Under the pieces are notes generated by a model. It searched no databases. It was given only the letters and a program-made list of their open reading frames with translations, and was not told where the DNA came from. This document shows, piece by piece, positions 4,243-52,500 of a stretch of 64,000 bases of DNA; the first letter of the stretch is position 1, and each line of letters starts with the position of its first letter. Origin of the DNA: Thermoanaerobaculia bacterium (GTDB lineage Bacteria > Acidobacteriota > Thermoanaerobaculia > Multivoradales > UBA5704); the NCBI GenBank assembly GCA_035996875.1, contig DASYJD010000054.1, forward strand, positions 16,837 to 80,836, written 5' to 3'. The position numbers and the translations under genes are program-made.

Positions 4243-6846
4243 TCACCCGCTCGTCGGGTCGTAGAAGAGCGGTGAAGAGCTGGCGCCGAGGTCGTTCGAG
4301 AGATAGATGCTCTCGAGCTGCCCGTTGCCGCTGAACGGCTCCAGCGTCAGCGGCACCGAGGCGCCCTTGGGAGGCGTGAGCGTCTCGCCGTCGAGGATCA
4401 CCCAGCGAGCGACCCGGATCGTTGGCCCCGTCACGGTGCCGGCGACCACGCGGTCCAAGCGATACTCGCAGGCGGCGAGCGCCTGGCGGTAGGGCGCGAT
4501 CTCGTCGAGCGTGGGGATGCGCGAGCAACGCTGGAGCGTCGCGAGCACCTGGGGCTGCGGCACGGCCTGCCGGCGGGCTCGCTCGGTGGCGTAGCGGCGG
4601 GCGTTCTCCGCCGCCTCGTCCAGACCGATCAGGCGGTCGTAGATCGCGAGCCCCTCGACGACACCCTTCCATCCCGCGCCGATCTCCAGGGCGCCGGGCT
4701 TCCAGAAATAGAAATCGCCCTGCCACGCGTCGTCGTCGAGAACCTTGGCTCCGTTTACATAAACCACCCGGCGGCCCGGGCCGTAGGCGGCGATCACGTG
4801 AACGGCTTGCCCGGCCACGAGCTTGCCGAAGCGGGCCGCCGGCCCCGCCGTCTTGTTGTGCAGCAGGCGCCAGACGAGGGCGTCGCCCTGCTGCGCCAGC
4901 TCCAGGAGGGGCGTGCCCTTGTAGCGGCCGAAGGAGAAAATCGCCCCCGAGGTTGCGGGCGCCGCCTCGGCGGGCGTGAGCGTCAGCTCCAGGGTGATCT
5001 CGTTGCTCTTTTCGGCCAGCTCGACGAGGCTCTTGCCCGCCTGCTCCTCGGCCTGGAAGGCGCCGTCGCCCACCAGCAGCATGGCGTGGTCGTGGTTCAG
5101 GCGCGCCCGGCCGTGAGGCTTCACGGCGTAGGTGCGGTCCGCGGCCTGCGAGGGATCGGGCACCAGGTTGGGCTGATCGGCCGCCGCCCACAGCAGGATG
5201 AGGCTCTTGCGGTCCACCGGCCAGTGGGGCGGCGGGATTTCGAGATCGGCCGGCACGAGGGCATTGGGCCGCTGCGCGCGGTCGACGATCCCTTCGAGGT
5301 GGAGGCGGTCGCCGGTCGTGAGGTCGGCGGCGAGAGTCACCTCCAGGCTCCGGCCGTCCGCGCCGATCTTGGTTTCCGTCACCTGCTTCCCCGAGGCGAG
5401 ACGCGCCTTCGCTCCGCCCGGAGCGGCGGCGACCGGCTCGTCGAAGGTGACGAGGATTGCCCGTCCCTGGCGCACCTCGGCCTTCAACGCCTTCGGCGGC
5501 TGGGCCGGCAGCACGGTCACCCGGCCGCGCAGGATCTCGCCGCTCTTTGCTTTTGCGGACACCGCGAAGCTCCCTGGCTTCTCGTAGGTGTGCTCGCCGC
5601 GGGCCGGGGCCGGCGGCGTGCCGTCGCCGAAGTCCCATTGAGCCTCGGGGCCGGGCTTTGAGTCCGGCAGTCGGACGTGGAACGGCGCTTCGCCGAACGT
5701 CCGCCCCAGGGGGAGCGGCTCGACGTGGACGTCCGGATAGCGGTCCGGAGTCGGCGCGGAGGTGTACTTCAGCGGCTGGCCGAGGACGTCCATGGTGGAC
5801 GGATCGACCTCGGCGACGAAGATGTCGTAGTTCCCTTTTTCGTGATCGTGCTCGTTGGGCGAGGCCCCGAAAGCAACGAGCGCCGAGCCGTTCGACAGCA
5901 TGGGGAAGTACATGTAGGCCTGGGCGCCGAGGCGCGGATCGTTCTTCTCGAACAGCGTCTTCTGGGTCCGCGTGGCGAGATCGAACGCCCGCAGGGGGCC
6001 GCCGGCTCCCGCCATCCAGATCCCCCAATGGCCGTCGTCGGAGAAGTAGGGCTCGCAGCCGCCGAAAGGAGTGCGCTCGGTGACGGCGCGGCGCGCGGCG
6101 TCATACAGGGAGAAGGTCGGCAGCCCGGTGGTCGCATGGGTCCGCGTGCGGTTCACCAGCCAGCCCTTGCCCTCGCTGCTGGGGCCGGCCAGCTTCTCCT
6201 TCGTGCCCTTGGCCAGATCGAGGAGGATGGCGTTGCCTTCCGGGTCGACGTATTGCAGCAGGTTGTCGCCGTGCCAGATGGCGGAGCGGTGGCCGCGGCT
6301 GTAGGTCTGCGCCGCCTCGGCGACGACGCGGTCTCCCTTGCCGTCGATCCCGATCAGGCGGAGCTTCCCCTCTTCGGGATCGGCAGCGTACTTGAAATTG
6401 CTGAGGCTCAGGTAGGCGACGCTCTTGCCGTCGGGGGCGATATGGGCGCAGCAGTGCTCGTGGCCGGACTCGTCCGGCGAGAGCTGGTGCAGGCCCGAGC
6501 CGTCCAGCCGGCGGGTCCAGATGCGCCAGGGTCCGGAGCGGTTCGACTCCCAGACGAGGAAGCCGTCGCCCAGCCGGGCGTAGTCGGGGGAGGAGACCTC
6601 GGGACCCGCGGGTGCCGCCGGGCGTGCGTCGGTGCTCGGATCGAGCCCGTGCAGAAGGGCCCTCACCGAGTCATGGTGAGTGTGGGCCCACCAGGCGACA
6701 GCCGCGAGGGCGGCGGCTACGACGCCGAGCCACCACTGCTTGCGGGATCTCTTGGGATTGGACGAAGTCATGGGAAGTCCGAGGCGACCTTCTTCAGCCG
6801 GCTCCGGCGGCGGGTGAGTGTATCCGGGGGGCCGCGGGAGGTTCAA
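4243..6846 (-). CDS. Membrane-anchored multidomain protein: TolB/PD40-like propeller, PKD, Ig-like, LamG-like
   Basis: N-terminal TM; WESNRSG and PDGKSVAY (PD40-like); WDFGDG...HTYEKPG (PKD); ITLELTL...RVVYVNG...WKGVVEGLAIYDR (LamG-like). The start may be MTSSNPK, 75 nt further in. Confidence 0.7.
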   Translation of the reverse strand: MNLPRPPGYTHPPPEPAEEGRLGLPMTSSNPKRSRKQWWLGVVAAALAAVAWWAHTHHDSVRALLHGLDPSTDARPAAPAGPEVSSPDYARLGDGFLVWESNRSGPWRIWTRRLDGSGLHQLSPDESGHEHCCAHIAPDGKSVAYLSLSNFKYAADPEEGKLRLIGIDGKGDRVVAEAAQTYSRGHRSAIWHGDNLLQYVDPEGNAILLDLAKGTKEKLAGPSSEGKGWLVNRTRTHATTGLPTFSLYDAARRAVTERTPFGGCEPYFSDDGHWGIWMAGAGGPLRAFDLATRTQKTLFEKNDPRLGAQAYMYFPMLSNGSALVAFGASPNEHDHEKGNYDIFVAEVDPSTMDVLGQPLKYTSAPTPDRYPDVHVEPLPLGRTFGEAPFHVRLPDSKPGPEAQWDFGDGTPPAPARGEHTYEKPGSFAVSAKAKSGEILRGRVTVLPAQPPKALKAEVRQGRAILVTFDEPVAAAPGGAKARLASGKQVTETKIGADGRSLEVTLAADLTTGDRLHLEGIVDRAQRPNALVPADLEIPPPHWPVDRKSLILLWAAADQPNLVPDPSQAADRTYAVKPHGRARLNHDHAMLLVGDGAFQAEEQAGKSLVELAEKSNEITLELTLTPAEAAPATSGAIFSFGRYKGTPLLELAQQGDALVWRLLHNKTAGPAARFGKLVAGQAVHVIAAYGPGRRVVYVNGAKVLDDDAWQGDFYFWKPGALEIGAGWKGVVEGLAIYDRLIGLDEAAENARRYATERARRQAVPQPQVLATLQRCSRIPTLDEIAPYRQALAACEYRLDRVVAGTVTGPTIRVARWVILDGETLTPPKGASVPLTLEPFSGNGQLESIYLSNDLGASSSPLFYDPTSG

Positions 6847-8070: not shown

Positions 8071-8289
8071 ATGATGCGAAAGGTCAGCCTGGTTCTTCTC
8101 GGCATCGCAATGGTCTTCATGGCGAAGGCATCGACGGCGGCGCTCAATGTCTGTCCCCAGCCGCCGGTGACCTCGTGCCAGACCTGCTTCCTGCATACCG
8201 TTCCGCCCACGCAGAGCGTTCAGTCCTGCACGCTGTTCTGCCAGAACGGAGTCCTGCGGCGGGTGTGCGCGGCCTGCGGCGAGTGCTGA
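8071..8289 (+). CDS. Small secreted Cys-rich protein (72 aa, 8 Cys)
   Basis: GGGAGG RBS, signal-peptide-like MMRKVSLVLLGIAMVFMAKASTAA, then C-x7-C-x2-C-x13-C-x3-C-x8-C-x2-C-x2-C ending at the C-terminus. Confidence 0.65.
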   Translation: MMRKVSLVLLGIAMVFMAKASTAALNVCPQPPVTSCQTCFLHTVPPTQSVQSCTLFCQNGVLRRVCAACGEC

Positions 8290-8413
8290 CCTACCGACGG
8301 TGGTCCCCTCCGGACCGCGGTTTCGTTTTCGTGGGGTCAGGACTACCGTGGGTAGCCCAGGTCCTCAGCCCCGGCGGCCAGCCGGTGGACCTGCCCGATT
8401 CCACCGGACCCCA

Positions 8414-8656
8414 CCGGCCCAACGGGTCGGGAGATCCAAGCCCAGGGCCAAGGCCGAAGGCCGACGCCCTGGGAAAAAGGGCACCCCATCCTCCGTGCGG
8501 CCTGTAAGGTCGCGAGAGCTTTCCCAACCGGGGCCCTCCAACGCCGGACCAACGGTCTCGCGACCTTTCAGGCCGCACCGCGTTGTCATCTCTCCACCCA
8601 GGGTATCGGCCTGCGGCCTTGGCCCTGGGCTCCGTTCTCCCGGCCCGTTGGGCCGG
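8414..8656. repeat. Long imperfect palindrome (~240 bp), REP-like family C
   Basis: Nested inverted arms: CCGGCCCAACGGG/CCCGTTGGGCCGG, CCCAGGGCCAAGGCCG/CGGCCTTGGCCCTGGG, GCGGCCTGTAAGGTCGCGAGA/TCTCGCGACCTTTCAGGCCGC. Confidence 0.8.
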
Positions 8657-8676
8657 GCGGGCCGGCACCGCCAACG

Positions 8677-8706
8677 TTGACATGGCATATTTACGTTCAA
8701 TAGAAT
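8677..8706 (+). promoter_or_regulatory. Near-consensus sigma70 promoter
   Basis: TTGACA (8677-8682), an 18-nt spacer and TAGAAT (8701-8706), in an AT-rich patch upstream of the island genes. Confidence 0.7.
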
Positions 8707-8821
8707 GAATGAGATACATTTTTTTCACCGGTAGCCTGAGCAGGCGTGGAGGCTGTCGCGAAGGCTTTGGGGACCAGACGGATACAGTTGATCTTGCGGT
8801 TAGCGTTGAGGTTTAGCCACA

Positions 8822-9331
8822 ATGAAATGGCCATCTAAGACTGAACGTGAACGGTGGGAGATAGGCGAGTTCCTCGATATTTACCGCCGTCTTCCGCACG
8901 GCCTAGACTTGGAGCTGATGGAGGAACGAGATAAACCCGACTTCTTCGTCCAAGAAGTTGGAGGGAATCGTAGATTCGGCGTGGAGGTAACTTCTGTCTA
9001 CCTGAACGATAGGAGTGTACCTGACGCTCACATGAACGATTCCTTCGACTGGCTGAACCTTCAGTGCGATCGTGAACAACTAGAGTTGTACGAGAGCCGG
9101 TTGGCTCAGGCGGTAGGAGAAAAGGTCGCGCTCGCCAAGCGAGAATACGATACTCGCTATCCGCTTCTCCTGTCGGTCTATGTGAACGAGTACATCTCGA
9201 AGTTCATCACCAAAGATCGGTGGTACAAGTTCAGACAGGATCATAACGTTTTGCTTGGAAACACCGACCCCTTCATAGAAGTGCTATTCTGGAATCTCCC
9301 GAACAACGGAGCATTCAGCATATGCTCCTAG
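8822..9331 (+). CDS. Hypothetical protein, possible PD-(D/E)xK nuclease fold
   Basis: AT-richer ORF with KPDFFVQEVGGNRRFGVEVT (PD...E-x-T). Confidence 0.65.
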   Translation: MKWPSKTERERWEIGEFLDIYRRLPHGLDLELMEERDKPDFFVQEVGGNRRFGVEVTSVYLNDRSVPDAHMNDSFDWLNLQCDREQLELYESRLAQAVGEKVALAKREYDTRYPLLLSVYVNEYISKFITKDRWYKFRQDHNVLLGNTDPFIEVLFWNLPNNGAFSICS

Positions 9332-9347
9332 CACGAGGAAAAGCTAG

Positions 9348-9668
9348 ATGTTGACACTTGATTCTCACGATCTGGCACTGGTGGAAGTTGCCCGTGCAGC
9401 GATGAGATCGGCGATCGCTCAAGCGAACAAGCCTAGCGCGGTGGCCAAACGTATAGCAGCGGAAGCAATGAAGCACCGAAACAGAGGCAGAAGGGCGGCA
9501 ATCTTGCGCCATCCATTTAGGGGAATCTGTGAGGCAAGCAGACTGCCTCTCGACCAGAGAGACGCAGTGCTCGATGAACTCGACCCTGCGAAGGGTTACA
9601 CCGGCGAGGTGCGCTGGGTGTGTCCCAAGGCTAACAACAGCGAAAGGCGCAGTTGCGGAAGCTGCTAG
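9348..9668 (+). CDS. Small hypothetical protein, degenerate HNH/His-Me-finger-like C-terminus
   Basis: CEASRLPL...DELDPAKGYTGEVRWVCPKANN resembles the D-R-I-D-x-x-K-G-Y...N-V-x-W-V-C-x-x-x-N HNH-like pattern. Stop lies 3 nt before the attC-like site. Confidence 0.55.
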   Translation: MLTLDSHDLALVEVARAAMRSAIAQANKPSAVAKRIAAEAMKHRNRGRRAAILRHPFRGICEASRLPLDQRDAVLDELDPAKGYTGEVRWVCPKANNSERRSCGSC

Positions 9669-9671
9669 GTC

Positions 9672-9733
9672 GCATAACACAGGGCCTCAACCGGACAGCA
9701 CCGGTTCGCGGTGCCGGTTAGGTAGCGTTATGA
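9672..9733 (+). mobile_element. Integron attC-like recombination site
   Basis: R'' GCATAAC (RYYTAAC type), L'' CTCAAC, stem CCGG-ACAGCACCGGTTCGCGGTG-CCGG, L' GTTAG, R' GTTATGA (GTTRRRY-like). About 62 bp, placed between a stop codon and the next gene. Confidence 0.75.
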
Positions 9734-9761
9734 GGTCAGGGGCTTGCGGGTAACTATCGAC

Positions 9762-10508
9762 ATGAGTGAAATCCTGGAGAACGCACTCGACTCACTTCGT
9801 ATGGCTGTCGGGCACTACAGTGACCAAGAGTTGGAAACGGCAGACAAGTGGGCAATTCTCGAGATGTTCCACGCAATAGAACTGCTACTTAAGGAGCGGC
9901 TACATCGCGAGCATCCACTCTTCATTTACAAGAACATCGACCAGAAGATTGAAGACGATTCGCTCACAGTTGGACTTCGAGAGATCTTGGTTCGTTTTGT
10001 GAACTTAGGCGTTGACATTCCAGCACAGTACCAGAAGATACTTCAGGATCTCCAGAAGCGGCGGAATCGGATCGAGCATCATCGGTTCGTGCCAGCGGAG
10101 AGCCACCAGCATGTACTTGGCGAGGCCCTAAAGTTCATCTCCTACTTCCTGGTGGAACATCTCGAAGAAGAACTGGAGAGTCATCTCCCGGCAGCGCTGT
10201 TCGAGGAGGTTAAGGGTCTTGTGCTCAGCTATGAAGATCTCGTTCACCGTGCGGAGGTTGATGCGGAAGCTGTTCTCCGGCGTTTCGGTCCGAAAGATAG
10301 ACCCGAGATCGAGATCGCAGTATGTCCTGAGTGCGGCAACAGAACACTTGTAATTGGAGCAGGTGAAGACGATGATAAGTGCTACTACTGTGACGAGGAT
10401 GTCGAGGTATGCGCCTGTTCGGAGTGTGGGACCTACCTTGCTCCCGATGAACTGATCGGCACTGGCATTTGCCAGAACTGCTTTAACTACAAGATGGAGC
10501 GTGATTAA
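9762..10508 (+). CDS. HEPN-domain protein with C-terminal zinc ribbon
   Basis: ENALDSL...HAIELLLKERL N-terminus; RNRIEH (R-x4-H HEPN motif); four CxxC pairs (CPEC, CYYC, CSEC, CQNC). Confidence 0.75.
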   Translation: MSEILENALDSLRMAVGHYSDQELETADKWAILEMFHAIELLLKERLHREHPLFIYKNIDQKIEDDSLTVGLREILVRFVNLGVDIPAQYQKILQDLQKRRNRIEHHRFVPAESHQHVLGEALKFISYFLVEHLEEELESHLPAALFEEVKGLVLSYEDLVHRAEVDAEAVLRRFGPKDRPEIEIAVCPECGNRTLVIGAGEDDDKCYYCDEDVEVCACSECGTYLAPDELIGTGICQNCFNYKMERD

Positions 10509-10525
10509 TGCTAGCGTTTTTGATC

Positions 10526-10547
10526 GCCTAACTTGTGAGCTAAAGCG
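10526..10547 (+). mobile_element. Possible truncated attC (left half only)
   Basis: GCCTAAC followed by TTGTGA-GCTAAAGCG, 17 nt after the HEPN stop. No matching GTTAGGC was found downstream. Confidence 0.35.
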
Positions 10548-10583
10548 AGTCCCTGGCAGTGACCTGAGGCCGGTCGGGAGCCG

Positions 10584-11317
10584 CTACTCGATCATGGACA
10601 GCAGCTCAGTAAGATCCGAAGCCAGACCAAAGTGATGGGCGTCCAACTCCCTGTTTCGTTCCACTGCGCCGTCTCGCAATACCTCCTCATATGCGCGCAA
10701 CTGAAACTCGACAATCCGGTTGCCATAGACGATTCCAGCGACACTCAGTCCGCCATCATCTCTGGCAGCGAGCAATGGCGCTCCACTTAATCCACTGGGG
10801 CAGGCGAAGCTAAGGCCGTAGTTAACGCCAAACGGGCGAGGCACGAGCCCATCAAAGTCGGCTCCTCCCCAGTTGGTTCTCACATGGCCACGAAAAAACA
10901 TCTTCTCGATTCTGACCAAATTGCGACCCCCTTCTTGGTGCTTCGCTCCAGAGAAGGGGAATCCGTAACTCGCTGCCGGGTCGCCGAGTTCAAGGCGTTC
11001 TGGTCCCAGCACCATCGGTGTGGCGAAGGTCGGAGCTTTCTCCCGCAAGAAGATGGCAATCGCCAAGTCGGCACTTGATGATAATCGAAGCCACCCCAAG
11101 TGTGCTTAGAATTGTTGGACAGGTCACCGATTCCTACTACGCCGCCTTGGGAGTCCACATCGACAACGTGCCGCGCGGTCACAAAAGCCACGTGCCTTCC
11201 GTGTTCTACGAAGAAGCCAGTGCCCAGGAAGTCCCCATCTCTGGTACGCAGTTCCTGCGCCGCGCCCTTCGTGTGGTAGCGGAACACAGGGAACACCGCT
11301 CGCTTGATGTCGCTCAT
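10584..11317 (-). pseudogene. Trypsin-like serine protease split by a 1-nt frameshift
   Basis: 5' frame MSDIKRAV...GTGFFV...VTARHVV (His). 3' frame SADLAI (Asp)...GLSGAPL (Ser). Restoring one C in CATCAAGT near 11075 gives YHPSADLAI. Confidence 0.75.
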
Positions 11318-11390
11318 GCCCTCATTATCCCTGACCGCCCCATCCACCTCCCAAGGAGAGGGAAACCCGGCTGGGGCGGACTTGCGGTTC

Positions 11391-11460
11391 TCCCTCTTCT
11401 CCCGGCAAGGTGGTGGAGGGGGTCGGGAGAAGAGGGCCGGGGTGATGAGGGTCTTGGGCT
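11391..11460. repeat. Family A repeat, reverse half copy
   Basis: CCCTCTTCTCCCGG...GGGAGAAGAGGGCCGGGGTGATGAGGGTCTTGGG. Confidence 0.85.
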
Positions 11461-11496
11461 AGGGCGCTCTGAGCCACGCCGTGCTACCTTTTTCAA

Positions 11497-12219
11497 GTGT
11501 TTCTGGACCTCCTCGCCGCCTTTCTCCCGGCGCCCGAGCGCGACGCGCTCGTCCGCCGTGGCGCCGAGCCCGCCCACTGGTCTTTCGTCCTGGGTCTTCT
11601 GGAGCTTTTCCTGGGCGTCAAGCTGCTGCTCGACAGCGCCTTGGCCTTCGATCAGGTGCAGAGCGCGGCCATTGCCACGCATCTGCTCGAGAAGGTCGAT
11701 CCGCGCGCGCTCAACAGCTTCGAGGCCAAGCTGGCCGTCACCGAGAGCGGGGCAATCATCTGGCTGGCGTGGGTGGTGCGGCCCACCACCTGGCTCCTGG
11801 CCAGCCTGCCGCTGGTGGGGATCGCGCGGCTGGTGGCCTTCGCCGCCACCGGCGATGCCTTCGGCGAACCTTTCGTCTGGCTGGTGTTGCGGGCGAGACA
11901 GCTCCTGGCGATTCCTGTCCGCTCATTCCGCGGCCGTCTCCGTTTCGGGCCCGAGCGGCCGGACCGCGTGGAGAGCGAGCCCGGGTGCGATCTGGTGGTG
12001 CTGAGCGGACGGCCCAAACCGGAGTGGAACGAGCTCGTGAGCCTCGAGATCGGCGGCCGGTTCTACCGTCTTCTCCGCACCGAGGAACGCCAGGACCGCG
12101 GCTGGTCGGCGATGGCCTACCTGCTGAGGGAGGCCGAGCCCAATGAAGTCCTCCGCGGCCTGCTGCGCTACGATCCTCCCGGGCCGGTTGCAAGCGCCGG
12201 CCCAGGAGGCCTGAAATGA
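11497..12219 (+). CDS. Hypothetical membrane protein
   Basis: 240-aa ORF with several hydrophobic segments and GC-rich codon usage. Its stop overlaps the next start (ATGA). Confidence 0.7.
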   Translation: MFLDLLAAFLPAPERDALVRRGAEPAHWSFVLGLLELFLGVKLLLDSALAFDQVQSAAIATHLLEKVDPRALNSFEAKLAVTESGAIIWLAWVVRPTTWLLASLPLVGIARLVAFAATGDAFGEPFVWLVLRARQLLAIPVRSFRGRLRFGPERPDRVESEPGCDLVVLSGRPKPEWNELVSLEIGGRFYRLLRTEERQDRGWSAMAYLLREAEPNEVLRGLLRYDPPGPVASAGPGGLK

Positions 12220-14581: not shown

Positions 14582-15421
14582 TCAACCTTCGATCACGAAG
14601 GCTTGGGGCATTTTTCTGGTTGATGAGGTGATCAAGTGGCTCCAGGTGCCATTGGCGTTTTTCTTGGAGAGTTGGGCCACGGTAGAGCCGTCTAGCTGCA
14701 TGATTTGGTCCTCAGGGCAACCCTTAGCTTTGAGAATGTTCACTGCCTCTGCCTGGGTCAAGCTCGTAGAAGTAAGAAAGATGACGGTTCCGAAGCCTTG
14801 GTTGTAAGGATTGGCTAACCCTACGTAGTTTCGGCCAAGCCTCGTAGTGGGGCTTTTAGGAAAGCTAGGTTTTAGACCAAGAACCACATCTGGGGCAAGG
14901 ATGGTACTGTTGAACGCCGCCAAGCTAAATGAACTAATGTAGGCCCTTTTCTCCTGGTCACGAATCGTCAACATGAGAAGATCGTTTGTTCCTTCAGCAG
15001 CACTGCAAGCAAATCCATAGGTTGCCCTCCAGGTGTTGACGCGTAGAGGAAATGCGGGGCGCCCGTTATCGTCGTGAAAGCTACCAGAAACCACTACGGA
15101 AGCTGCGTTTGCAGCGCTTTTCTGAGTGAAACCGGCGACGTTCATTGCTTCAAAACGATTGACCCATCCACGGCATCCATTAGTGCCAACATCCTGAGGT
15201 CCCGTACCCAGGATTGGCTTGAGGTGTGCGCCGTTCATCAGGTGAACAGTCGTTGTGTAGGTTGATGCGTAGCCTGTTACGGTTTCTAGGATTACTTTAG
15301 GTTGGGTAGTCGTTTTTTCCTGGAAATCAGCTTGGTCCTGAGCTGGAGCAGCGTAAACCGCCATGAGCAAAAGACCCAATACTACGGGCGCCGCGACCAC
15401 CCGCAAGGTAACTCTTGACAT
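14582..15421 (-). CDS. AT-richer secreted hypothetical protein, C-terminus resembling phosphodiester glycosidase (NAGPA) family
   Basis: Signal peptide ending VYAAPA; LTQAEAVNILKAKGC...IMQLDGSTVAQL resembles the A-x-N-L-D-G-G-G-S family motif. Confidence 0.6.
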   Translation of the reverse strand: MSRVTLRVVAAPVVLGLLLMAVYAAPAQDQADFQEKTTTQPKVILETVTGYASTYTTTVHLMNGAHLKPILGTGPQDVGTNGCRGWVNRFEAMNVAGFTQKSAANAASVVVSGSFHDDNGRPAFPLRVNTWRATYGFACSAAEGTNDLLMLTIRDQEKRAYISSFSLAAFNSTILAPDVVLGLKPSFPKSPTTRLGRNYVGLANPYNQGFGTVIFLTSTSLTQAEAVNILKAKGCPEDQIMQLDGSTVAQLSKKNANGTWSHLITSSTRKMPQAFVIEG

Positions 15422-21530: not shown

Positions 21531-22418
21531 TCAGCGAAAGATCACACAGGAGAAAAGGGCGATCAAGGATAGGGAAATCATCAGTGCATTGCCTGTCATG
21601 ATGCCTGCTCTCGCACTTGAAGCGAAATAGCACTGAATCTTGTCTCGATCAGAGAGTGCTCCCAAGCCAAAAGCGAAAATGCTTGCGACAACCGGTATAC
21701 ATAGAAACATGGGTAAATACCACCAGGCGATGGATCGATATAGGACAGCCGTGCCCACCATGAAGGAAGCTGCTGCCAAATACCGGCCAAATAGAAGAGA
21801 CCGTCTTACCCCGAGAGCGACGGTTGTGTTGTGGACTCCGGCCTCAGAATCGGCATCTATGTCTCGGATCATCGCGATCAAGTTACAGGCCGACAAGAAT
21901 AATAAAAGGAAGGTAAGATTGAGTAGAGATATATTGGGATTATGGGGCAGGCCTCCATGAGACGCCGTGATCTCGAGAGGTGCCATGTAAGGAAGAATTA
22001 CGAAGGAGAAGCCGAGCGATACCAAATCGAGGACCGGCTTGGTCTTTAAGTGAATATTGGGAATTGAGTAAAGAAGCCCAAACAGCAGGGTGCCGGCAGT
22101 GCAGATGCGAGCACCTCCGTAAAACCCGAGAGCCAGGCCCAATGTCGAGAGCGAGGAGACCATGATGCTTGTTGCGCGCCCCGAAATTTCAGAGGGTATG
22201 CGATCGAGTCTTTTGGCGTTCATCCCTTTGTCGGCATACTCATTCAGGATAAAAGCCGCTATTGAGATTAGCAGCAATCCTATACCAGTGGATGCATAGC
22301 ATCTTCCCGGAGGATGATAGAGGGAGCCCTGGTCGAGAATCCCATAGAGAAAGGAGACCACGATCGTGGGCTGCTCAGACAGCCTCATTGCCTTGAAGAT
22401 GACCCGCAGCTTAGTCAT
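21531..22418 (-). CDS. UbiA family prenyltransferase (AT-richer)
   Basis: Multiple TMs; LNEYAD and IRDIDADSEAGVHNTTVALG Asp-rich motifs; LHLK-like HLKTKPVLD. Confidence 0.8.
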   Translation of the reverse strand: MTKLRVIFKAMRLSEQPTIVVSFLYGILDQGSLYHPPGRCYASTGIGLLLISIAAFILNEYADKGMNAKRLDRIPSEISGRATSIMVSSLSTLGLALGFYGGARICTAGTLLFGLLYSIPNIHLKTKPVLDLVSLGFSFVILPYMAPLEITASHGGLPHNPNISLLNLTFLLLFLSACNLIAMIRDIDADSEAGVHNTTVALGVRRSLLFGRYLAAASFMVGTAVLYRSIAWWYLPMFLCIPVVASIFAFGLGALSDRDKIQCYFASSARAGIMTGNALMISLSLIALFSCVIFR

Positions 22419-22541
22419 GGAGTCGGCCCTCCTGGTGTCGACCTGGCACAAACGGATTGCCTGTATGCAAGAGACGCGAGATCGCGACCGCCCAGGGATC
22501 AGGAACACCGCATCCCCTCTCTGCTACAATCCTCTCTGCCC

Positions 22542-27587: not shown

Positions 27588-27696
27588 CCCATAGGCGCTA
27601 ACTTATCTGAGAGATCCCCCACCCCAAGACCCTCATCACCCCGGCCCTCTTCTCCCGACCCCTCCCACCCCCCTCACCGGGAGAAGAGGGAGAGGT
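27588..27696. repeat. Family A repeat with CCCATAGGCGCTAACTTA end
   Basis: Terminal motif followed by the core CCCAAGACCCTCATCACCCCGGCCCTCTTCTCCC...GGGAGAAGAGGG. Confidence 0.85.
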
Positions 27697-28030: not shown

Positions 28031-28864
28031 GTGCCCGCATTCCCAAGCCCCTACTCCGCCCTGATGCACCACGGCAAGCTTGCCGGCGAGGAGCCCTGGC
28101 TCTTCCGTAGCGAAGGCCTGGACTGGCGCTGGCACTCCTGGGGCGATCTGGCCCGCCAAGCGTCTGCCTGGGCCAGCCATTTCGCCGGCCGTCCCCCGGC
28201 CTCCCGCGTTGCCTTCCCCTACCGGCCTGGACTTGAAGCGATCGCTCTCGACTTTGGAATTCAGGGTGCTGGACTGGTTTCCATGCCCATGAGCGGGGAA
28301 TCCGTCCCGGAGCCCGAGGACCCCCTCCCAAGACCCTCATCACCCCGGCCCTCTTCTCCCGACCCCTCCCAACCCCCCTCACCGGGAGAAGAGGGAGAAC
28401 AGCAAGACCGGCCAAACACGAGTGGGGCTGTGGTTCTGATCGAGGGCTCCGCGGTCGAACTGAGCGCGGTGGAGCTCATGGCGATGGCGGAGCGGATCCA
28501 GGGGGAGATCGCTCCGCCTCGGCGGGCCGGGGAACGAGAGATCGTGGTCCTCGGCGGAGCTTTGGAGGCGGTGGAGGAGCGGGCGATGTGGGCCTGGGCT
28601 ACGGTGGCGGGGGCCGCGGTGGCCCTGGAACCTGCGCCGGAGCTGCGGATCGCCACCGCAGCCTGGGTTCGTCCGACGGTGTTTCACGGCACGGCGGAGG
28701 AGATCGCCATGCTGCGGAGGTGGGCGGAGACGAAAAAGAGGCGCGGCCTTCCCTTCGGGCGGCTGCGGACGGTGCTGGTGACGGGTGGCGAGCTGGGGGA
28801 AGAAGAGGCGGCGGTTTGGCGGGATTTGGGAGTGAGGGTGGGGAGGGTGACCCATAGGCGATAA
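28031..28864 (+). CDS. Truncated AMP-binding-domain-like protein with an in-frame repeat insertion
   Basis: WRWHSWGDLARQA, RVAF, IALDFGIQGAGLVSMP, VRPTVFHG and FGRLRTVLVTGG resemble an acyl-CoA synthetase N-domain. The C-terminal catalytic domain is absent. Confidence 0.55.
   Translation: MPAFPSPYSALMHHGKLAGEEPWLFRSEGLDWRWHSWGDLARQASAWASHFAGRPPASRVAFPYRPGLEAIALDFGIQGAGLVSMPMSGESVPEPEDPLPRPSSPRPSSPDPSQPPSPGEEGEQQDRPNTSGAVVLIEGSAVELSAVELMAMAERIQGEIAPPRRAGEREIVVLGGALEAVEERAMWAWATVAGAAVALEPAPELRIATAAWVRPTVFHGTAEEIAMLRRWAETKKRRGLPFGRLRTVLVTGGELGEEEAAVWRDLGVRVGRVTHRR
28327..28403. repeat. Family A repeat copy inside a CDS, translated as PRPSSPRPSSPDPSQPPSPGEEGEQQ
   Basis: Same core as the intergenic copies, with no stop in the host frame. 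Confidence 0.85.
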
Positions 28865-29070
28865 CTTTGACGCTTCGGAGCGCGCCCCCGCCCAAGACCC
28901 TCATCACCCCGGCCCTCTTCTCCCGCCCCCTCCGCACCCCCCTCACCGGGAGAAGAGGGAGAACAGCCGGCATGGATAACGAGGACGAGGGAAAACGCCC
29001 CAGAGGTACCCCTCTCCCGGTGAGGGGGGTGCGGAGGGGGCGGGAGAGGGGCAGGGGTGAGGGTCTTGCC
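28851..29070. repeat. Family A repeat, full palindromic form
   Basis: CCCATAGGCGATAACTT end, core, and inverted GGGGTGAGGGTCTTG. Confidence 0.85.
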
Positions 29071-31787: not shown

Positions 31788-31984
31788 CACCCAAGACCCT
31801 CATCACCCCGGCCCTCTTCTCCCGACCCCCTCCTCCCCCTCACCGGGAGAAGAGGGAGCAAGGCAAGAACGCCCCAGGGGTACCCCTCTCCCGGGGAGGT
31901 GGATGGGGTGGTCGGGAGAGGGGCAGGGGTGAGGGTCTTGGGCGGGGGGAACCTCTGAGACACTTTAAGTTAGCGCCTATGGGG
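31788..31984. repeat. Family A repeat ending TAAGTTAGCGCCTATGGG
   Basis: Core, inverted core, and the reverse complement of the terminal motif. Confidence 0.85.
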
Positions 31985-39654: not shown

Positions 39655-39735
39655 CCCACCCAAGACCCTCATCACCCCGGCCCTCTTCTCCCGCCCCCTC
39701 CGCACCCCCCTCACCGGGAGAAGAGGGAGAACAGC
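39655..39735. repeat. Family A repeat, half copy
   Basis: CCCAAGACCCTCATCACCCCGGCCCTCTTCTCCC...GGGAGAAGAGGGAGAACAGCCGG. Confidence 0.85.
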
Positions 39736-44378: not shown

Positions 44379-44762
44379 ACCCATAGGCGTTGACTTGGTC
44401 TGAGAGGTCCCCCCAATCCCCTCATCACCCCGGCCCTCTTCTCCCATCGCCCTCCCCCCAACCGGGAGAAGAGGGAGAACAGCCAAGAGCAAGCAATGCC
44501 GCCTTTTTTGGCGCTCCCCTCTCTCCCGGCCGGGGGGAGGGCGATGGGAGAGAGGGGTTGGAGGAGTGAGGGTCTTGGGCGGGGGAAGCTCCAAGACCAA
44601 GTTAAGTTAGCGCCTATGGGGTGGTCGGGAGAGGGGCAGGGGTGAGGGTTTTGGGAGGGGGGATCTCTGAGGCGGCAAAGTCAGCGCCTATGCACCCTCC
44701 CTCTTCTCCCGGTTGGGGGGAGGGCGATGGGAGAAGAGGGCCGGGGTGATGAGGGGTCTTGG
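44379..44762. repeat. Composite family A element bounded by inverted terminal motifs
   Basis: CCCATAGGCGTTGACTT...AAGTTAGCGCCTATGGG (44379-44620), then a second partial unit ending GTCAGCGCCTATG and a reverse core. Confidence 0.85.
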
Positions 44763-52289: not shown

Positions 52290-52500
52290 CCTGGCTGTTC
52301 TCCCTCTTCTCCCGGTCGGGGGGAGGGCGATGGGAGAAGAGGGCCGGGGTGATGAGGGGTCTTCCGGCGGTACGTCGACGCGCCGCCGACGGCTGTGGTG
52401 TTCACAACCGTCCTCTCCGCGCCGGAGACGCCCCACGGGGTACCCCGTGGGCGTCTCTACCTTGGGACCGGTAGGGAAGAGGGCCGGGGTGATGAGGGTC
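52290..52500. repeat. Family A halves flanking a family B REP
   Basis: Reverse core at 52300-52350; GGAGACGCCCCACGGGGTACCCCGTGGGCGTCTCTAC at 52424-52460; partial core at 52475-52500. Confidence 0.85.

What the first reader, a model, noticed from the sequence alone, without database searches (positions are those of the whole stretch)
8677..10547. Integrase-less integron cassette cluster (CALIN-like) carrying three nuclease-like genes
Seen: an abrupt drop in GC, a complete attC-like hairpin (GCATAAC...CTCAAC...GTTAG...GTTATGA) 3 nt after a stop codon, and a second GCCTAAC left half after the next gene. All ORFs are co-oriented, and there is no tyrosine recombinase in the window. Established: attC clusters lacking intI exist, and cassette arrays are known to carry anti-phage genes. 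Inference: the cargo (PD-(D/E)xK-like, HNH-like, HEPN-Zn) is a candidate uncharacterised defence set.
Basis: partly seen in the sequence, partly recalled or inferred. Interest (0 to 1): 0.75.

Follow-up and report, generated by a model that had tools for sequence, protein, structure and literature searches.

The report
Orphan integron cassettes without integrase
A low-GC stretch in an uncultured high-GC bacterium is a decaying remnant of an integron array: two gene cassettes, one intact attC site and no integrase. This is a common kind of element, carrying one recognisable anti-phage gene and one uncharacterised two-gene module.

Summary
GC falls from about 68% to about 52% at 8677. The hairpin at 9672-9733 is a real attC. 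A covariance model built from 17 attC sites of unrelated metagenomic loci hits only this site in the 64 kb (35.8 bits, E 8e-7, + strand). Its bottom strand folds with an extrahelical G.

Homology sets the cassette borders. Cassette A (8800-9727) holds ORF1 and ORF2 and recurs as a unit in other arrays. Cassette B (9728 onward) holds ORF3. Its own attC is cut off just after the R'' box GCCTAAC (10526-10532). ORF1 relatives lie in attC arrays, one with a confirmed integron integrase.

The window has no integrase. With one intact attC, the element is a SALIN by IntegronFinder 2.0 rules, not a CALIN.

The cargo is not one three-gene set. ORF3 is a short relative of HEC-08/PDC-S64 (DUF3644 HEPN plus zinc ribbons), and HEC-08 is a validated anti-phage gene. 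ORF1 (PD-(D/E)xK-like topology only) and ORF2 (weak HNH-like fold, catalytic His replaced by Glu) have no family match, so their nuclease labels are unproven.

Verdict: a genuine but ordinary kind of element. Moderate interest lies in the ORF1-ORF2 module.

The parts
8677..8706 (+). Sigma-70-like promoter TTGACA-N18-TAGAAT at the exact left edge of the low-GC island. It is the candidate driver of the three cassette genes, which appear to lack promoters of their own.
   Evidence: 11 of 12 consensus matches, and the only site found in 8300-11600. GC drops at this position. Function is inferred.
8677..8798 (+). Low-GC leader of unknown origin, between host DNA and the first cassette.
   Evidence: No attC fold (z -0.2 and +1.0). 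No similarity to any fetched locus. No attC-model hit.
8799..8805 (+). Remnant R' core GTTAGCG, which is the left border of cassette A (crossover G|TT between 8799 and 8800).
   Evidence: DNA similarity to L086 and L087 starts at 8799. Relatives read GTTATGC|GTTGAGG at the same place, and in L086 this is preceded by a complete attC. The window has a 1-nt deletion.
8822..9331 (+). ORF1, 169 aa, first gene of cassette A. Unannotated family with alpha-beta-beta-beta-alpha-beta topology.
   Evidence: No Pfam, NCBIfam or PADLOC hit. 148 clusters in 1.84 billion representatives. AF2 pLDDT 86. Invariant D40, E55, T57, K101, E123. 78 metagenome loci, many with an attC right after the stop.
9348..9668 (+). 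ORF2, 106 aa, second gene of cassette A. Three helices followed by a Cys4 beta-beta-alpha module.
   Evidence: 23 homologs. Invariant C61, D76, E77, with C92, C103 and C106 nearly invariant. AF2 pLDDT 95. Best PDB fold match is an HNH nicking endonuclease, E 0.75. No Pfam family.
9672..9733 (+). Complete 62-nt attC of cassette A. R'' 9672-9678, L'' 9685-9694 (extra C at 9688, which is the extrahelical G on the bottom strand), L' 9714-9722, R' 9727-9733.
   Evidence: Covariance-model hit of 35.8 bits, E 8e-7. Its 5' half is homologous to the attC after ORF2 in L086, L087 and L088.
9762..10508 (+). ORF3, 248 aa, sole gene of cassette B (cassette starts at 9728). DUF3644-type HEPN domain (R101-N-R-I-E-H106) followed by CxxC zinc ribbons.
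   Evidence: PADLOC PDC-S64 6.2e-30, DUF3644 5.4e-10, HEC-08 1.9e-6. Pfam DUF3644 is below its cut-off at 23 bits. More than 200 homologs. Invariant R101, N102, E105, H106, C188, C191, C207, C210.
10526..10532 (+). Vestigial R'' box GCCTAAC of cassette B's attC. The rest of the site is missing.
   Evidence: Similarity to L005 ends at 10532. In L005 the same box opens an attC at 862-935 (E 0.0013; sequence). There is no fold or partner arm in the window.
10584..11347 (-). Frameshifted trypsin-like serine protease gene inside the low-GC island. Not shown to be a cassette.
   Evidence: Two overlapping ORFs. The hand-joined protein reaches Pfam Trypsin_2 at 33 bits (cut-off 27.6), spanning the junction. 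The sequence is identical in the Logan contig L003.
11333..11458 (.). Host intergenic hairpin repeat marking the right edge of the island.
   Evidence: Ten or more copies in the window. DNA fold z -2.8 and -3.5.

Best explanation
Window 8677-10547 is an immobilised remnant of an integron cassette array in the chromosome of an uncultured bacterium of about 68% GC. It holds two cassettes in the usual head-to-tail order.

Cassette A (8800-9727) carries ORF1 and ORF2 and ends in a complete 62-nt attC. Cassette B (9728 onward) carries ORF3. Its own attC has been cut off just after the R'' box.

No integrase, attI or second intact attC is present. The array can no longer reshuffle by itself. At most, an integrase supplied in trans could act on the single attC.

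The genes have no obvious promoters of their own. They are probably read from the strong sigma-70-like promoter at the left edge of the island, in the manner of the Pc promoter of an integron (inferred).

The cargo is two independent modules. ORF3 is a streamlined relative of the validated single-gene anti-phage protein HEC-08. It has a HEPN RNase domain with an intact Rx4H motif and C-terminal zinc ribbons. It most likely works by RNA cleavage with growth arrest on infection (inferred from the family).

ORF1-ORF2 is an unannotated two-gene module. ORF1 is a likely restriction-endonuclease-fold effector. ORF2 is a small Cys4 protein with a degenerate HNH-like module. The module is most likely another conflict system, either defence or toxin-antitoxin (inferred, weak).
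For: attC identity:
- A covariance model from 17 unrelated attC sites hits only 9672-9733 on the + strand, at 35.8 bits and E 8e-7.
- The same model gives 52 hits in 450 kb of ORF1-homolog loci, all on the gene strand.
- On the model-fitted alignment, all 8 L-box pairs show compensatory changes and 0 of 500 shuffles reach the observed covariation score.
- The bottom strand folds with an extrahelical G.

Cassette borders from homology:
- Window against L086 and L087 is similar over 8799-9716 only. The left end falls at G|TT of an R' box and the right end inside the attC. The neighbours differ (HNH and Mrr_cat in L086, Imm32 in L087).
- Window against L005 is similar over 9748-10532, ending at GCCTAAC.
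- L004 carries a weak attC-model hit at 2401-2459 (E 0.07), ending in the same junction GTTATGAGGT just upstream of its ORF3 homolog.

Integron link:
- L081 has a TIGR02249 integron integrase (421 bits, cut-off 265), then two attC sites, then a truncated ORF1 homolog (residues 3-92).
- Integrase fragments lie next to ORF1 homologs in L010-L012, L025, L032 and L040.

Absence of integrase and other attC sites in the window.

Cargo:
- ORF3: and the HEC-08 mutagenesis in bioRxiv 10.1101/2024.01.29.577857.
- ORF1 domain fused to Schlafen/AlbA_2-HATPase_c_4, a DprA-like domain and a beta-flower domain in other proteins.

Promoter.
Against: - The attC model is my own, not IntegronFinder's attc_4.cm. 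It was trained on short sites, so long attC sites could be missed.
- The 122 nt left of cassette A and the protease pseudogene on the right are also low in GC but are not cassette-like. The acquired island is therefore larger than the array, and its origin is unresolved.
- No empty site or syntenic relative was found.
- 95 kb of the source contig were not searched for intI.
- Promoter use, ORF3 activity and any function of ORF1 and ORF2 are untested.
- The ORF1 structure model was lost before it could be searched.
Confidence: 0.85

Rival explanations
1. The hairpin is a chance palindrome, a terminator or a host REP-like repeat, and the island is a generic horizontally acquired region unrelated to integrons.
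For: Only one complete site exists, and single attC calls are treated as possible false positives by IntegronFinder 2.0 (PMC9024848). The host genome does carry hairpin repeats.
Against: Covariance-model E 8e-7 with strand specificity. No such site (L stem of 9 bp or more) arose in 100 simulated 64-kb sequences. The site is homologous to attC sites in arrays. The cassette borders fall at G|TT. Relatives lie beside an integron integrase. The host repeat is a different sequence.
Confidence: 0.03
2. ORF1, ORF2 and ORF3 form a single three-gene defence system.
For: They are adjacent, co-oriented and probably co-transcribed from one promoter.
Against: An attC separates ORF2 from ORF3. None of the 78 ORF1 loci and none of the four fetched ORF2-homolog contexts (L086, L087, L088/L089, L090) carries an ORF3 homolog. 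The seven other fetched ORF3 loci have other neighbours. Adjacency is seen only in this contig and its identical Logan copy.
Confidence: 0.05
3. Origin by insertion: an integrase acting in trans inserted a two-cassette circle at a non-att genomic site (attG), as shown experimentally by Loot et al. The downstream attC was damaged later.
For: SALINs and two-cassette CALINs are frequent and mostly lack nearby intI pseudogenes (bioRxiv 10.1101/2022.09.11.507474). The left junction is a bare G|TT core with no attC arm upstream. The cassettes lie downstream of a promoter, which that paper says is needed for expression.
Against: The 122 nt between the host DNA and the G|TT junction are themselves low in GC and look foreign. 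The right side of the array ends at R'', not at a hybrid R'. No empty site is available for comparison.
Confidence: 0.25
4. Origin by decay or fragment transfer: the segment is what is left of a larger array. Either it decayed in place after loss of intI/attI and of distal cassettes, or it arrived as a fragment by recombination together with the flanking low-GC DNA and the protease gene.
For: Signs of decay lie on all sides: a 1-nt deletion in the left R' core, a truncated right attC and a frameshifted neighbouring gene. The low-GC island (8677 to about 11330) is larger than the two cassettes. In L086 the attC sites of this family are nearly identical within one array, which is typical of sedentary chromosomal integrons.
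Against: No intI fragment in the window. No further attC remnants.
Confidence: 0.55
5. ORF1-ORF2 is a toxin-antitoxin pair that stabilises arrays, rather than an anti-phage system.
For: It is a compact two-gene cassette that moves as a unit. ORF2 recurs downstream of unrelated partner genes. Toxin-antitoxin cassettes are common in chromosomal integrons (my own knowledge).
Against: Neither protein matches a toxin-antitoxin family. Most ORF1 homologs occur without ORF2.
Confidence: 0.2

Closest known systems
[quoted passage not shown]
   Same: Cassette genes with an attC, no integrase or attI nearby, in a chromosome. 3400 SALINs and 2961 CALINs were reported in RefSeq genomes, and 1362 of those CALINs have only two cassettes.
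   Different: Homology shows two cassettes but only one intact attC. The other two sites survive only as a 7-nt R' core and a 7-nt R'' box, so the element falls between the two software categories. The host is an uncultured high-GC lineage. Its closest MBOAT homolog is only 67% identical, in a Thermoanaerobaculia MAG.
HEC-08 (Hma-embedded candidate 08) and PADLOC PDC-S64
   Same: N-terminal DUF3644-type HEPN domain with an Rx4-6H motif, followed by C-terminal zinc-finger or zinc-ribbon modules, in a single gene. HEC-08 defence is abolished by mutating the motif histidine. ORF3 matches both PADLOC models and keeps R101 and H106.
   Different: ORF3 is 248 aa, against profile lengths of 305-358. 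The match to HEC-08 is distant (E 1.9e-6). The strong match to PDC-S64 covers only the HEPN half. Here the gene is carried on an integron cassette rather than embedded in an Hma system.
Streamlined defence cassettes of sedentary chromosomal integrons (Darracq et al., bioRxiv 10.1101/2024.07.02.601686)
   Same: Short, single- or two-gene anti-phage candidates carried as cassettes, including HEPN-only and His-Me/HNH-related proteins.
   Different: Those systems were found in Vibrio arrays with an integrase and were tested experimentally. Here the genes sit in an orphan remnant, are untested, and were not compared at sequence level with the named systems.
Classical attC sites (for example the aadA-type 60-nt site)
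   Same: Same R''-L''...L'-R' layout, the invariant AAC/GTT triplets, an extrahelical base in L'', and a length of 62 nt. L048 and L034 carry sites that I recognise from memory as the classical aadA-type 60-nt attC, and these score with the same model.
   Different: The spacers are 6 nt (R''-L'') and 4 nt (L'-R'), where the training sites have 5 and 6. R' (GTTATGA) mismatches R'' at the last base, as expected for a hybrid junction.

Membership tests
Integron attC site / gene cassette | Imperfect palindrome R''(RYYYAAC)-L''...L'-R'(GTTRRRY) of 57-141 nt with conserved AAC and GTT | tested here: met
   GCATAAC...GTTATGA, 62 nt, with a 9-bp L stem. R'' and R' each deviate from the strict RY consensus at one or two positions.
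Integron attC site / gene cassette | Significant score with an attC covariance model | tested here: met
   My own model from 17 unrelated attC sites gives 35.8 bits, E 8e-7, a full-length match, on the + strand only. IntegronFinder's attc_4.cm itself was not available.
Integron attC site / gene cassette | Extrahelical bases on the folded bottom strand | tested here: inconclusive
   The extrahelical G in the L'' arm is present, and the '' side has two more unpaired spacer bases than the ' side. A discrete extrahelical T could not be assigned.
Integron attC site / gene cassette | Site lies just 3' of a co-oriented ORF, and cassette borders fall at G|TT | tested here: met
   The site starts 3 nt after the ORF2 stop. 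Homology to L086 and L087 starts at 8799/8800 (G|TT).
Integron attC site / gene cassette | Homologous cassettes occur in arrays with an integron integrase | tested here: met
   L081: TIGR02249 at 421 bits (cut-off 265), then two attC sites, then a truncated ORF1 homolog (residues 3-92).
Integron attC site / gene cassette | Recombined by an integron integrase | not testable with these tools
   Needs a conjugation-delivery recombination assay.
CALIN (IntegronFinder 2.0 default) | At least two attC sites clustered | tested here: not met
   One complete attC in 64 kb. The flanking sites are 7-nt remnants.
CALIN / SALIN | No integron integrase nearby | tested here: met
   Best tblastn E with IntI1 in the window is 0.15. 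Gene kb upstream show no recombinase. The rest of the contig was not examined.
Complete integron | intI plus attI plus Pc next to the first cassette | tested here: not met
   No intI. The leader 8677-8798 matches no attI region in the fetched integrons. Only a promoter-like site is present.
HEC-08 / PDC-S64 (ORF3) | N-terminal DUF3644-type HEPN domain with Rx4-6H | tested here: met
   PADLOC DUF3644 5.4e-10 and PDC-S64 6.2e-30. R101 and H106 are invariant in 31 relatives. Pfam DUF3644 scores 23 bits, below its 27.6 cut-off.
HEC-08 / PDC-S64 (ORF3) | C-terminal zinc-finger or zinc-ribbon modules | tested here: met
   C188/C191 and C207/C210 are invariant; C219, C222 and C240 are nearly invariant. 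Weak zinc-ribbon Pfam hits.
HEC-08 / PDC-S64 (ORF3) | Full-length match to the family model | tested here: inconclusive
   HEC-08 E 1.9e-6 over residues 3-240 against profile positions 18-267 of 358. PDC-S64 second model E 1.5e-5 over 3-243 against 9-270 of 305. PADLOC has no curated cut-offs, and ORF3 is 60-110 aa shorter than the profiles.
HEC-08 / PDC-S64 (ORF3) | Protects against phage | not testable with these tools
   Needs expression and a phage challenge.
PD-(D/E)xK nuclease (ORF1) | alpha-beta-beta-beta-alpha-beta core fold | tested here: inconclusive
   The AF2 model (pLDDT 86) has H6-23, E30-35, E41-45, E51-59, H84-108, E115-121 in that order. The model was lost before any fold search.
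PD-(D/E)xK nuclease (ORF1) | Catalytic D...(D/E)xK motif | tested here: not met
   Invariant D40 and E55 are in place, but the third position is an invariant T57, not K. The invariant K101 lies on the next helix.
PD-(D/E)xK nuclease (ORF1) | Profile match to a known family | tested here: not met
   No Pfam, NCBIfam, PADLOC or PDB-sequence hit. hhalign against an Mrr_cat protein gives probability 0.2.
HNH / His-Me finger nuclease (ORF2) | beta-beta-alpha-metal fold | tested here: inconclusive
   AF2 (pLDDT 95) shows E74-77, E88-91, H93-96. The top PDB match is the Gme HNH nicking endonuclease, but with E 0.75 and TM 0.39-0.44. Many HNH proteins appear among weak viral matches, all with E of 0.15 or more.
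HNH / His-Me finger nuclease (ORF2) | Catalytic histidine at the end of beta 1 | tested here: not met
   The position is an invariant D76-E77 in all 24 sequences.
HNH / His-Me finger nuclease (ORF2) | Profile match to HNH families | tested here: not met
   No Pfam HNH hit for any of the 24 members. hhalign against the PF01844 protein of L086 gives probability 0.2.

The most novel reading that the evidence does not exclude
The ORF1-ORF2 cassette is a new two-gene conflict module, either anti-phage defence or a toxin-antitoxin-like pair. It would be built from an unannotated restriction-endonuclease-fold effector domain and a small Cys4 protein with an HNH-derived module in which the catalytic His is replaced by Glu. 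The effector domain recurs fused to Schlafen/AlbA_2-HATPase_c_4, a DprA-like domain and a beta-flower domain. The small protein also pairs with unrelated upstream partners.
Probability: 0.3. Interest if true: 0.55.

Novelty: new member of a known kind. Interest (0 to 1): 0.4.

Why it matters
The element shows, base by base, how an integron array decays into an orphan. One intact attC is flanked by a 7-nt R' core and a 7-nt R'' box, and only homology to other arrays reveals these remnants. Software that counts attC sites would under-call the element or skip it.

It also adds to the evidence that cassettes in environmental, non-proteobacterial lineages carry compact defence genes. It puts forward a small, unannotated two-gene module for testing. 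It does not change what is known about integrons.

Tried and rejected
- Looked for a second attC after ORF3 and an attC or attI before ORF1. Folding gives no structure (z from -0.2 to +1.3) and the covariance model gives no hit. Rejected as sites, but kept as homologous remnants.
- Looked for attC sites in the other low-GC islands (14582-15421, 21531-22508). None found.
- Rfam at gathering threshold over the window, and at E of 1 or less over 8250-11600. Nothing relevant. No tRNA genes.
- Searched GTDB genomes with the neighbouring MBOAT protein to find an empty site and the host. The best hit is 67% identical (a Thermoanaerobaculia MAG). None of the 80 loci holds homologs of the right-flank genes or of the island genes, so neither the insertion site nor the host could be resolved.
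- The fold search of the ORF1 model failed because the model was lost on the remote machine.
- PDB profile searches for ORF1 and ORF2 found nothing.
- hhalign of ORF2 against an HNH protein, and of ORF1 against an Mrr_cat protein, found nothing.
- Tested whether ORF2 always follows ORF1. It does not. The pair occurs only in the closest relatives (L086, L087), and none of the 78 metagenome loci holding ORF1 relatives carries ORF2.
- My first attC scan rule was too strict to find the sites in L004 and L005. It was replaced by the covariance model.
Full report
**Source and setting.** The window is part of a 159.5-kb contig from JGI metagenome 3300035671, Ga0372940_0000033. A 2.8-kb Logan contig (SRR11678566) is 100% identical over 8627-11441. 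Background GC is 0.64-0.72. From 8677 to about 11330 it falls to 0.50-0.58. The best genome match of a neighbouring MBOAT gene is only 67% identical, in a Thermoanaerobaculia MAG. No syntenic relative exists among 80 GTDB loci. The host is therefore an unplaced, uncultured high-GC bacterium.

**The observation.** The island holds three + strand ORFs: ORF1 at 8822-9331 (169 aa), ORF2 at 9348-9668 (106 aa) and ORF3 at 9762-10508 (248 aa). It also holds a reverse-strand trypsin-like protease gene split by a frameshift, at 10584-11347. When the two protease halves are joined by hand, the protein passes Pfam Trypsin_2 across the junction (33 bits, cut-off 27.6).

Three nucleotides after the ORF2 stop lies a 62-nt imperfect palindrome. 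It reads GCATAAC-acaggg-CCT-C-AACCGG...CCGGTTAGG-tagc-GTTATGA. As single-stranded DNA the bottom strand folds at -15.1 kcal/mol (z -3.7), with an extrahelical G in the L'' arm. The top strand folds slightly less well.

**Is the hairpin more than chance?** Two tests say yes.

- An ad hoc scan for attC architecture found this as the only site in the window with an L stem of 9 bp or more. None appeared in 100 simulated 64-kb sequences of either composition.
- I took 17 attC sites from unrelated metagenomic loci, aligned them, and built a covariance model with the R-box and L-box helices. With filters off, the model hits the window once, at 9672-9733 on the + strand, full length, 35.8 bits, E 8e-7. 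The reverse strand scores 11 bits, and nothing else in the window has E below 2.

The same model finds 52 sites (E of 0.01 or less) in 450 kb of loci carrying ORF1 homologs. Every one is on the gene strand. On the alignment of 43 hits, the AAC/GTT triplets are invariant. All eight L-box pairs show compensatory changes, and 0 of 500 shuffles reach the observed covariation. This alignment was fitted to the model, which favours the structure.

**Cassette borders.** ORF1 and ORF2 recur together, at 86% and 92% amino-acid identity, in two other arrays with different neighbours. In L086 the order is HNH | ORF1 ORF2 | Mrr_cat | ..., and in L087 it is ... | ORF1 ORF2 | Imm32.

DNA similarity to both loci runs only from 8799 to 9716. 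At the left end the relatives read GTTATGC|GTTGAGG, and in L086 this is preceded by a complete attC of the same family. The window reads GTTA-GC|GTTGAGG, so an R' core with a 1-nt deletion remains and nothing attC-like lies upstream. At the right end the similarity stops inside the attC, whose 5' half is conserved.

Cassette A is therefore 8800-9727, and cassette B starts at 9728.

**ORF3 and its truncated attC.** ORF3 has two close homologs in other contexts. In L004 a weak attC-model hit (E 0.07) ends in the same junction GTTATGAGGT just upstream of the gene. In L005 the gene is followed by its own attC (862-935, E 0.0013), which opens with GCCTAAC. The L005 cassette is also flanked by group II intron pieces.

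Window-to-L005 similarity ends exactly at 10532, the last base of GCCTAAC. Downstream of that point the window has no fold and no model hit. The 'second left half' is thus a real vestige of cassette B's attC, truncated after R''.

**Link to integrons.** ORF1 has 78 relatives in metagenome contigs. Many are followed at once by textbook attC sites, and some stop codons lie inside R''. L081 and L082 carry a full integron integrase (TIGR02249, 421 bits against a cut-off of 265), then two attC sites, then a truncated ORF1 homolog (residues 3-92). Integrase fragments adjoin ORF1 homologs in six more loci.

The window itself has no integrase. The best tblastn E-value with IntI1 is 0.15.

**Classification.** IntegronFinder 2.0 requires two attC sites for a CALIN (PMC9024848). 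Single sites are called SALINs (Loot et al.). With one intact attC and two 7-nt remnants, this is a SALIN by count and a decayed two-cassette array by homology.

**Edges of the island.** The left edge begins with TTGACA-N18-TAGAAT, which matches 11 of 12 consensus positions. This is the obvious candidate promoter for the three genes, but that role is inferred.

Just left of the promoter lies a unique hairpin of about 260 nt (RNA MFE -198.8 kcal/mol, z -13.9). The right edge coincides with a host hairpin repeat present ten or more times in the window.

How the array arrived cannot be decided without an empty site. Three routes remain open: decay in place, transfer as a fragment, or integrase-mediated insertion at a non-att site as shown by Loot et al.

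**Cargo: ORF3.** ORF3 matches the PADLOC models PDC-S64 (6.2e-30 over the N-terminal half), DUF3644 (5.4e-10) and HEC-08 (1.9e-6 over the full length). In 31 relatives R101, N102, E105 and H106 (the HEPN Rx4H motif) and two CxxC pairs are invariant.

DUF3644 was assigned to the HEPN superfamily by Anantharaman et al. (PMC3710099). HEC-08 has the same architecture, and it protects against phage unless the motif histidine is mutated (bioRxiv 10.1101/2024.01.29.577857). ORF3 is 60-110 aa shorter than these profiles. This fits the 'streamlined variants' reported for cassette-borne defences (bioRxiv 10.1101/2024.07.02.601686).

Its relatives also occur outside integrons, next to helicases in Stutzerimonas stutzeri and in IS-rich regions.

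**Cargo: ORF1.** ORF1 matches nothing in Pfam, NCBIfam, PADLOC or PDB sequences. The family is small, with 148 clusters among 1.84 billion representatives.

Its AF2 model (pLDDT 86) has the alpha-beta-beta-beta-alpha-beta order of restriction-endonuclease folds. Invariant D40 and E55 sit at the expected strands, but T57 occupies the place where lysine is expected. The model was lost before it could be searched.

In other proteins the domain is fused to Schlafen/AlbA_2-HATPase_c_4-wHTH, to a DprA-like domain, and to a beta-flower domain. I recognise these partners as typical of conflict systems (my own knowledge).

**Cargo: ORF2.** ORF2 has an AF2 model at pLDDT 95, with three helices followed by a Cys4 beta-beta-alpha module. 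Its best PDB match is an HNH nicking endonuclease, but the match is not significant (E 0.75). Viral matches are likewise weak.

The HNH catalytic His position is an invariant Glu. ORF2 also occurs downstream of unrelated partner genes. 'Nuclease-like' is therefore a lead for ORF1 and ORF2, not a finding.

**Verdict.** This is a genuine orphan remnant of an integron array, which is a frequent kind of element. It carries one recognisable defence gene and one unannotated two-gene module that is worth a simple toxicity and phage test.

Noticed in passing
window 8404-8668: A near-perfect long hairpin of about 260 nt (arms 8409-8522 and 8551-8661). RNA MFE is -198.8 kcal/mol, z -13.9. It is unique in the window, has no Rfam match, has host-like GC, and abuts the left edge of the low-GC island. 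Its identity is unknown.
   Followed up: partly
window 11333-11458, with copies at 267-336, 27623-27693, 28327-28406, 28890-28964, 31790-31913, 39659-39732, 44419-44480, 44697-44755 and 52297-52358: A host intergenic hairpin repeat of 70-126 nt (core CCCTCTTCTCCCG...CGGGAGAAGAGGG), present ten or more times in the 64 kb. It looks like a REP or MITE element. One copy marks the right edge of the island.
   Followed up: partly
window 10584-11347 (-): A trypsin-like serine protease gene (motifs TARHVV, DLAIAIF, GLSGAPL) broken by a frameshift near 11065-11080. The joined protein passes Pfam Trypsin_2. GC is about 56%, so it is part of the foreign island. The N-terminal half weakly matches PADLOC PDC-M35A (E 0.0017).
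   Followed up: partly
window 14582-15421 (-) and 21531-22508 (-): Two further single-gene low-GC islands (about 50% GC): a 279-aa secreted protein and a 325-aa polytopic membrane protein. Neither has an attC site nearby.
   Followed up: no
L005 1-35 and 1508-3031: The ORF3-homolog cassette is flanked by group II intron pieces: a domain-V-like sequence upstream and an RT/maturase gene just after its attC. This resembles the attC-targeting group IIC introns.
   Followed up: no
P0262, P0202, P0173 (relatives of ORF1): The ORF1 domain occurs as the C-terminal module of larger proteins. The N-terminal parts are Schlafen/AlbA_2 + HATPase_c_4 + wHTH, a DprA-like domain, or a beta-flower domain.
   Followed up: partly
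alignment A2 (ORF2 family): Five of 24 members weakly match Pfam PF20304 (Sp-CxC, a small protein of CxC ATPase-based DNA modification systems), with a best E of 0.013.
   Followed up: no
L086 4448-4520 and about 5400-5475: Two consecutive attC sites of one array are nearly identical to each other and to the 5' half of the window's attC. This is the pattern of a sedentary chromosomal integron, which may be the source lineage of cassette A.
   Followed up: partly
L002 1-526 (just outside the window start): A HepT-like / NTP_transf_2 (MNT) toxin-antitoxin pair lies about 9.5 kb upstream of the island on the same contig.
   Followed up: no
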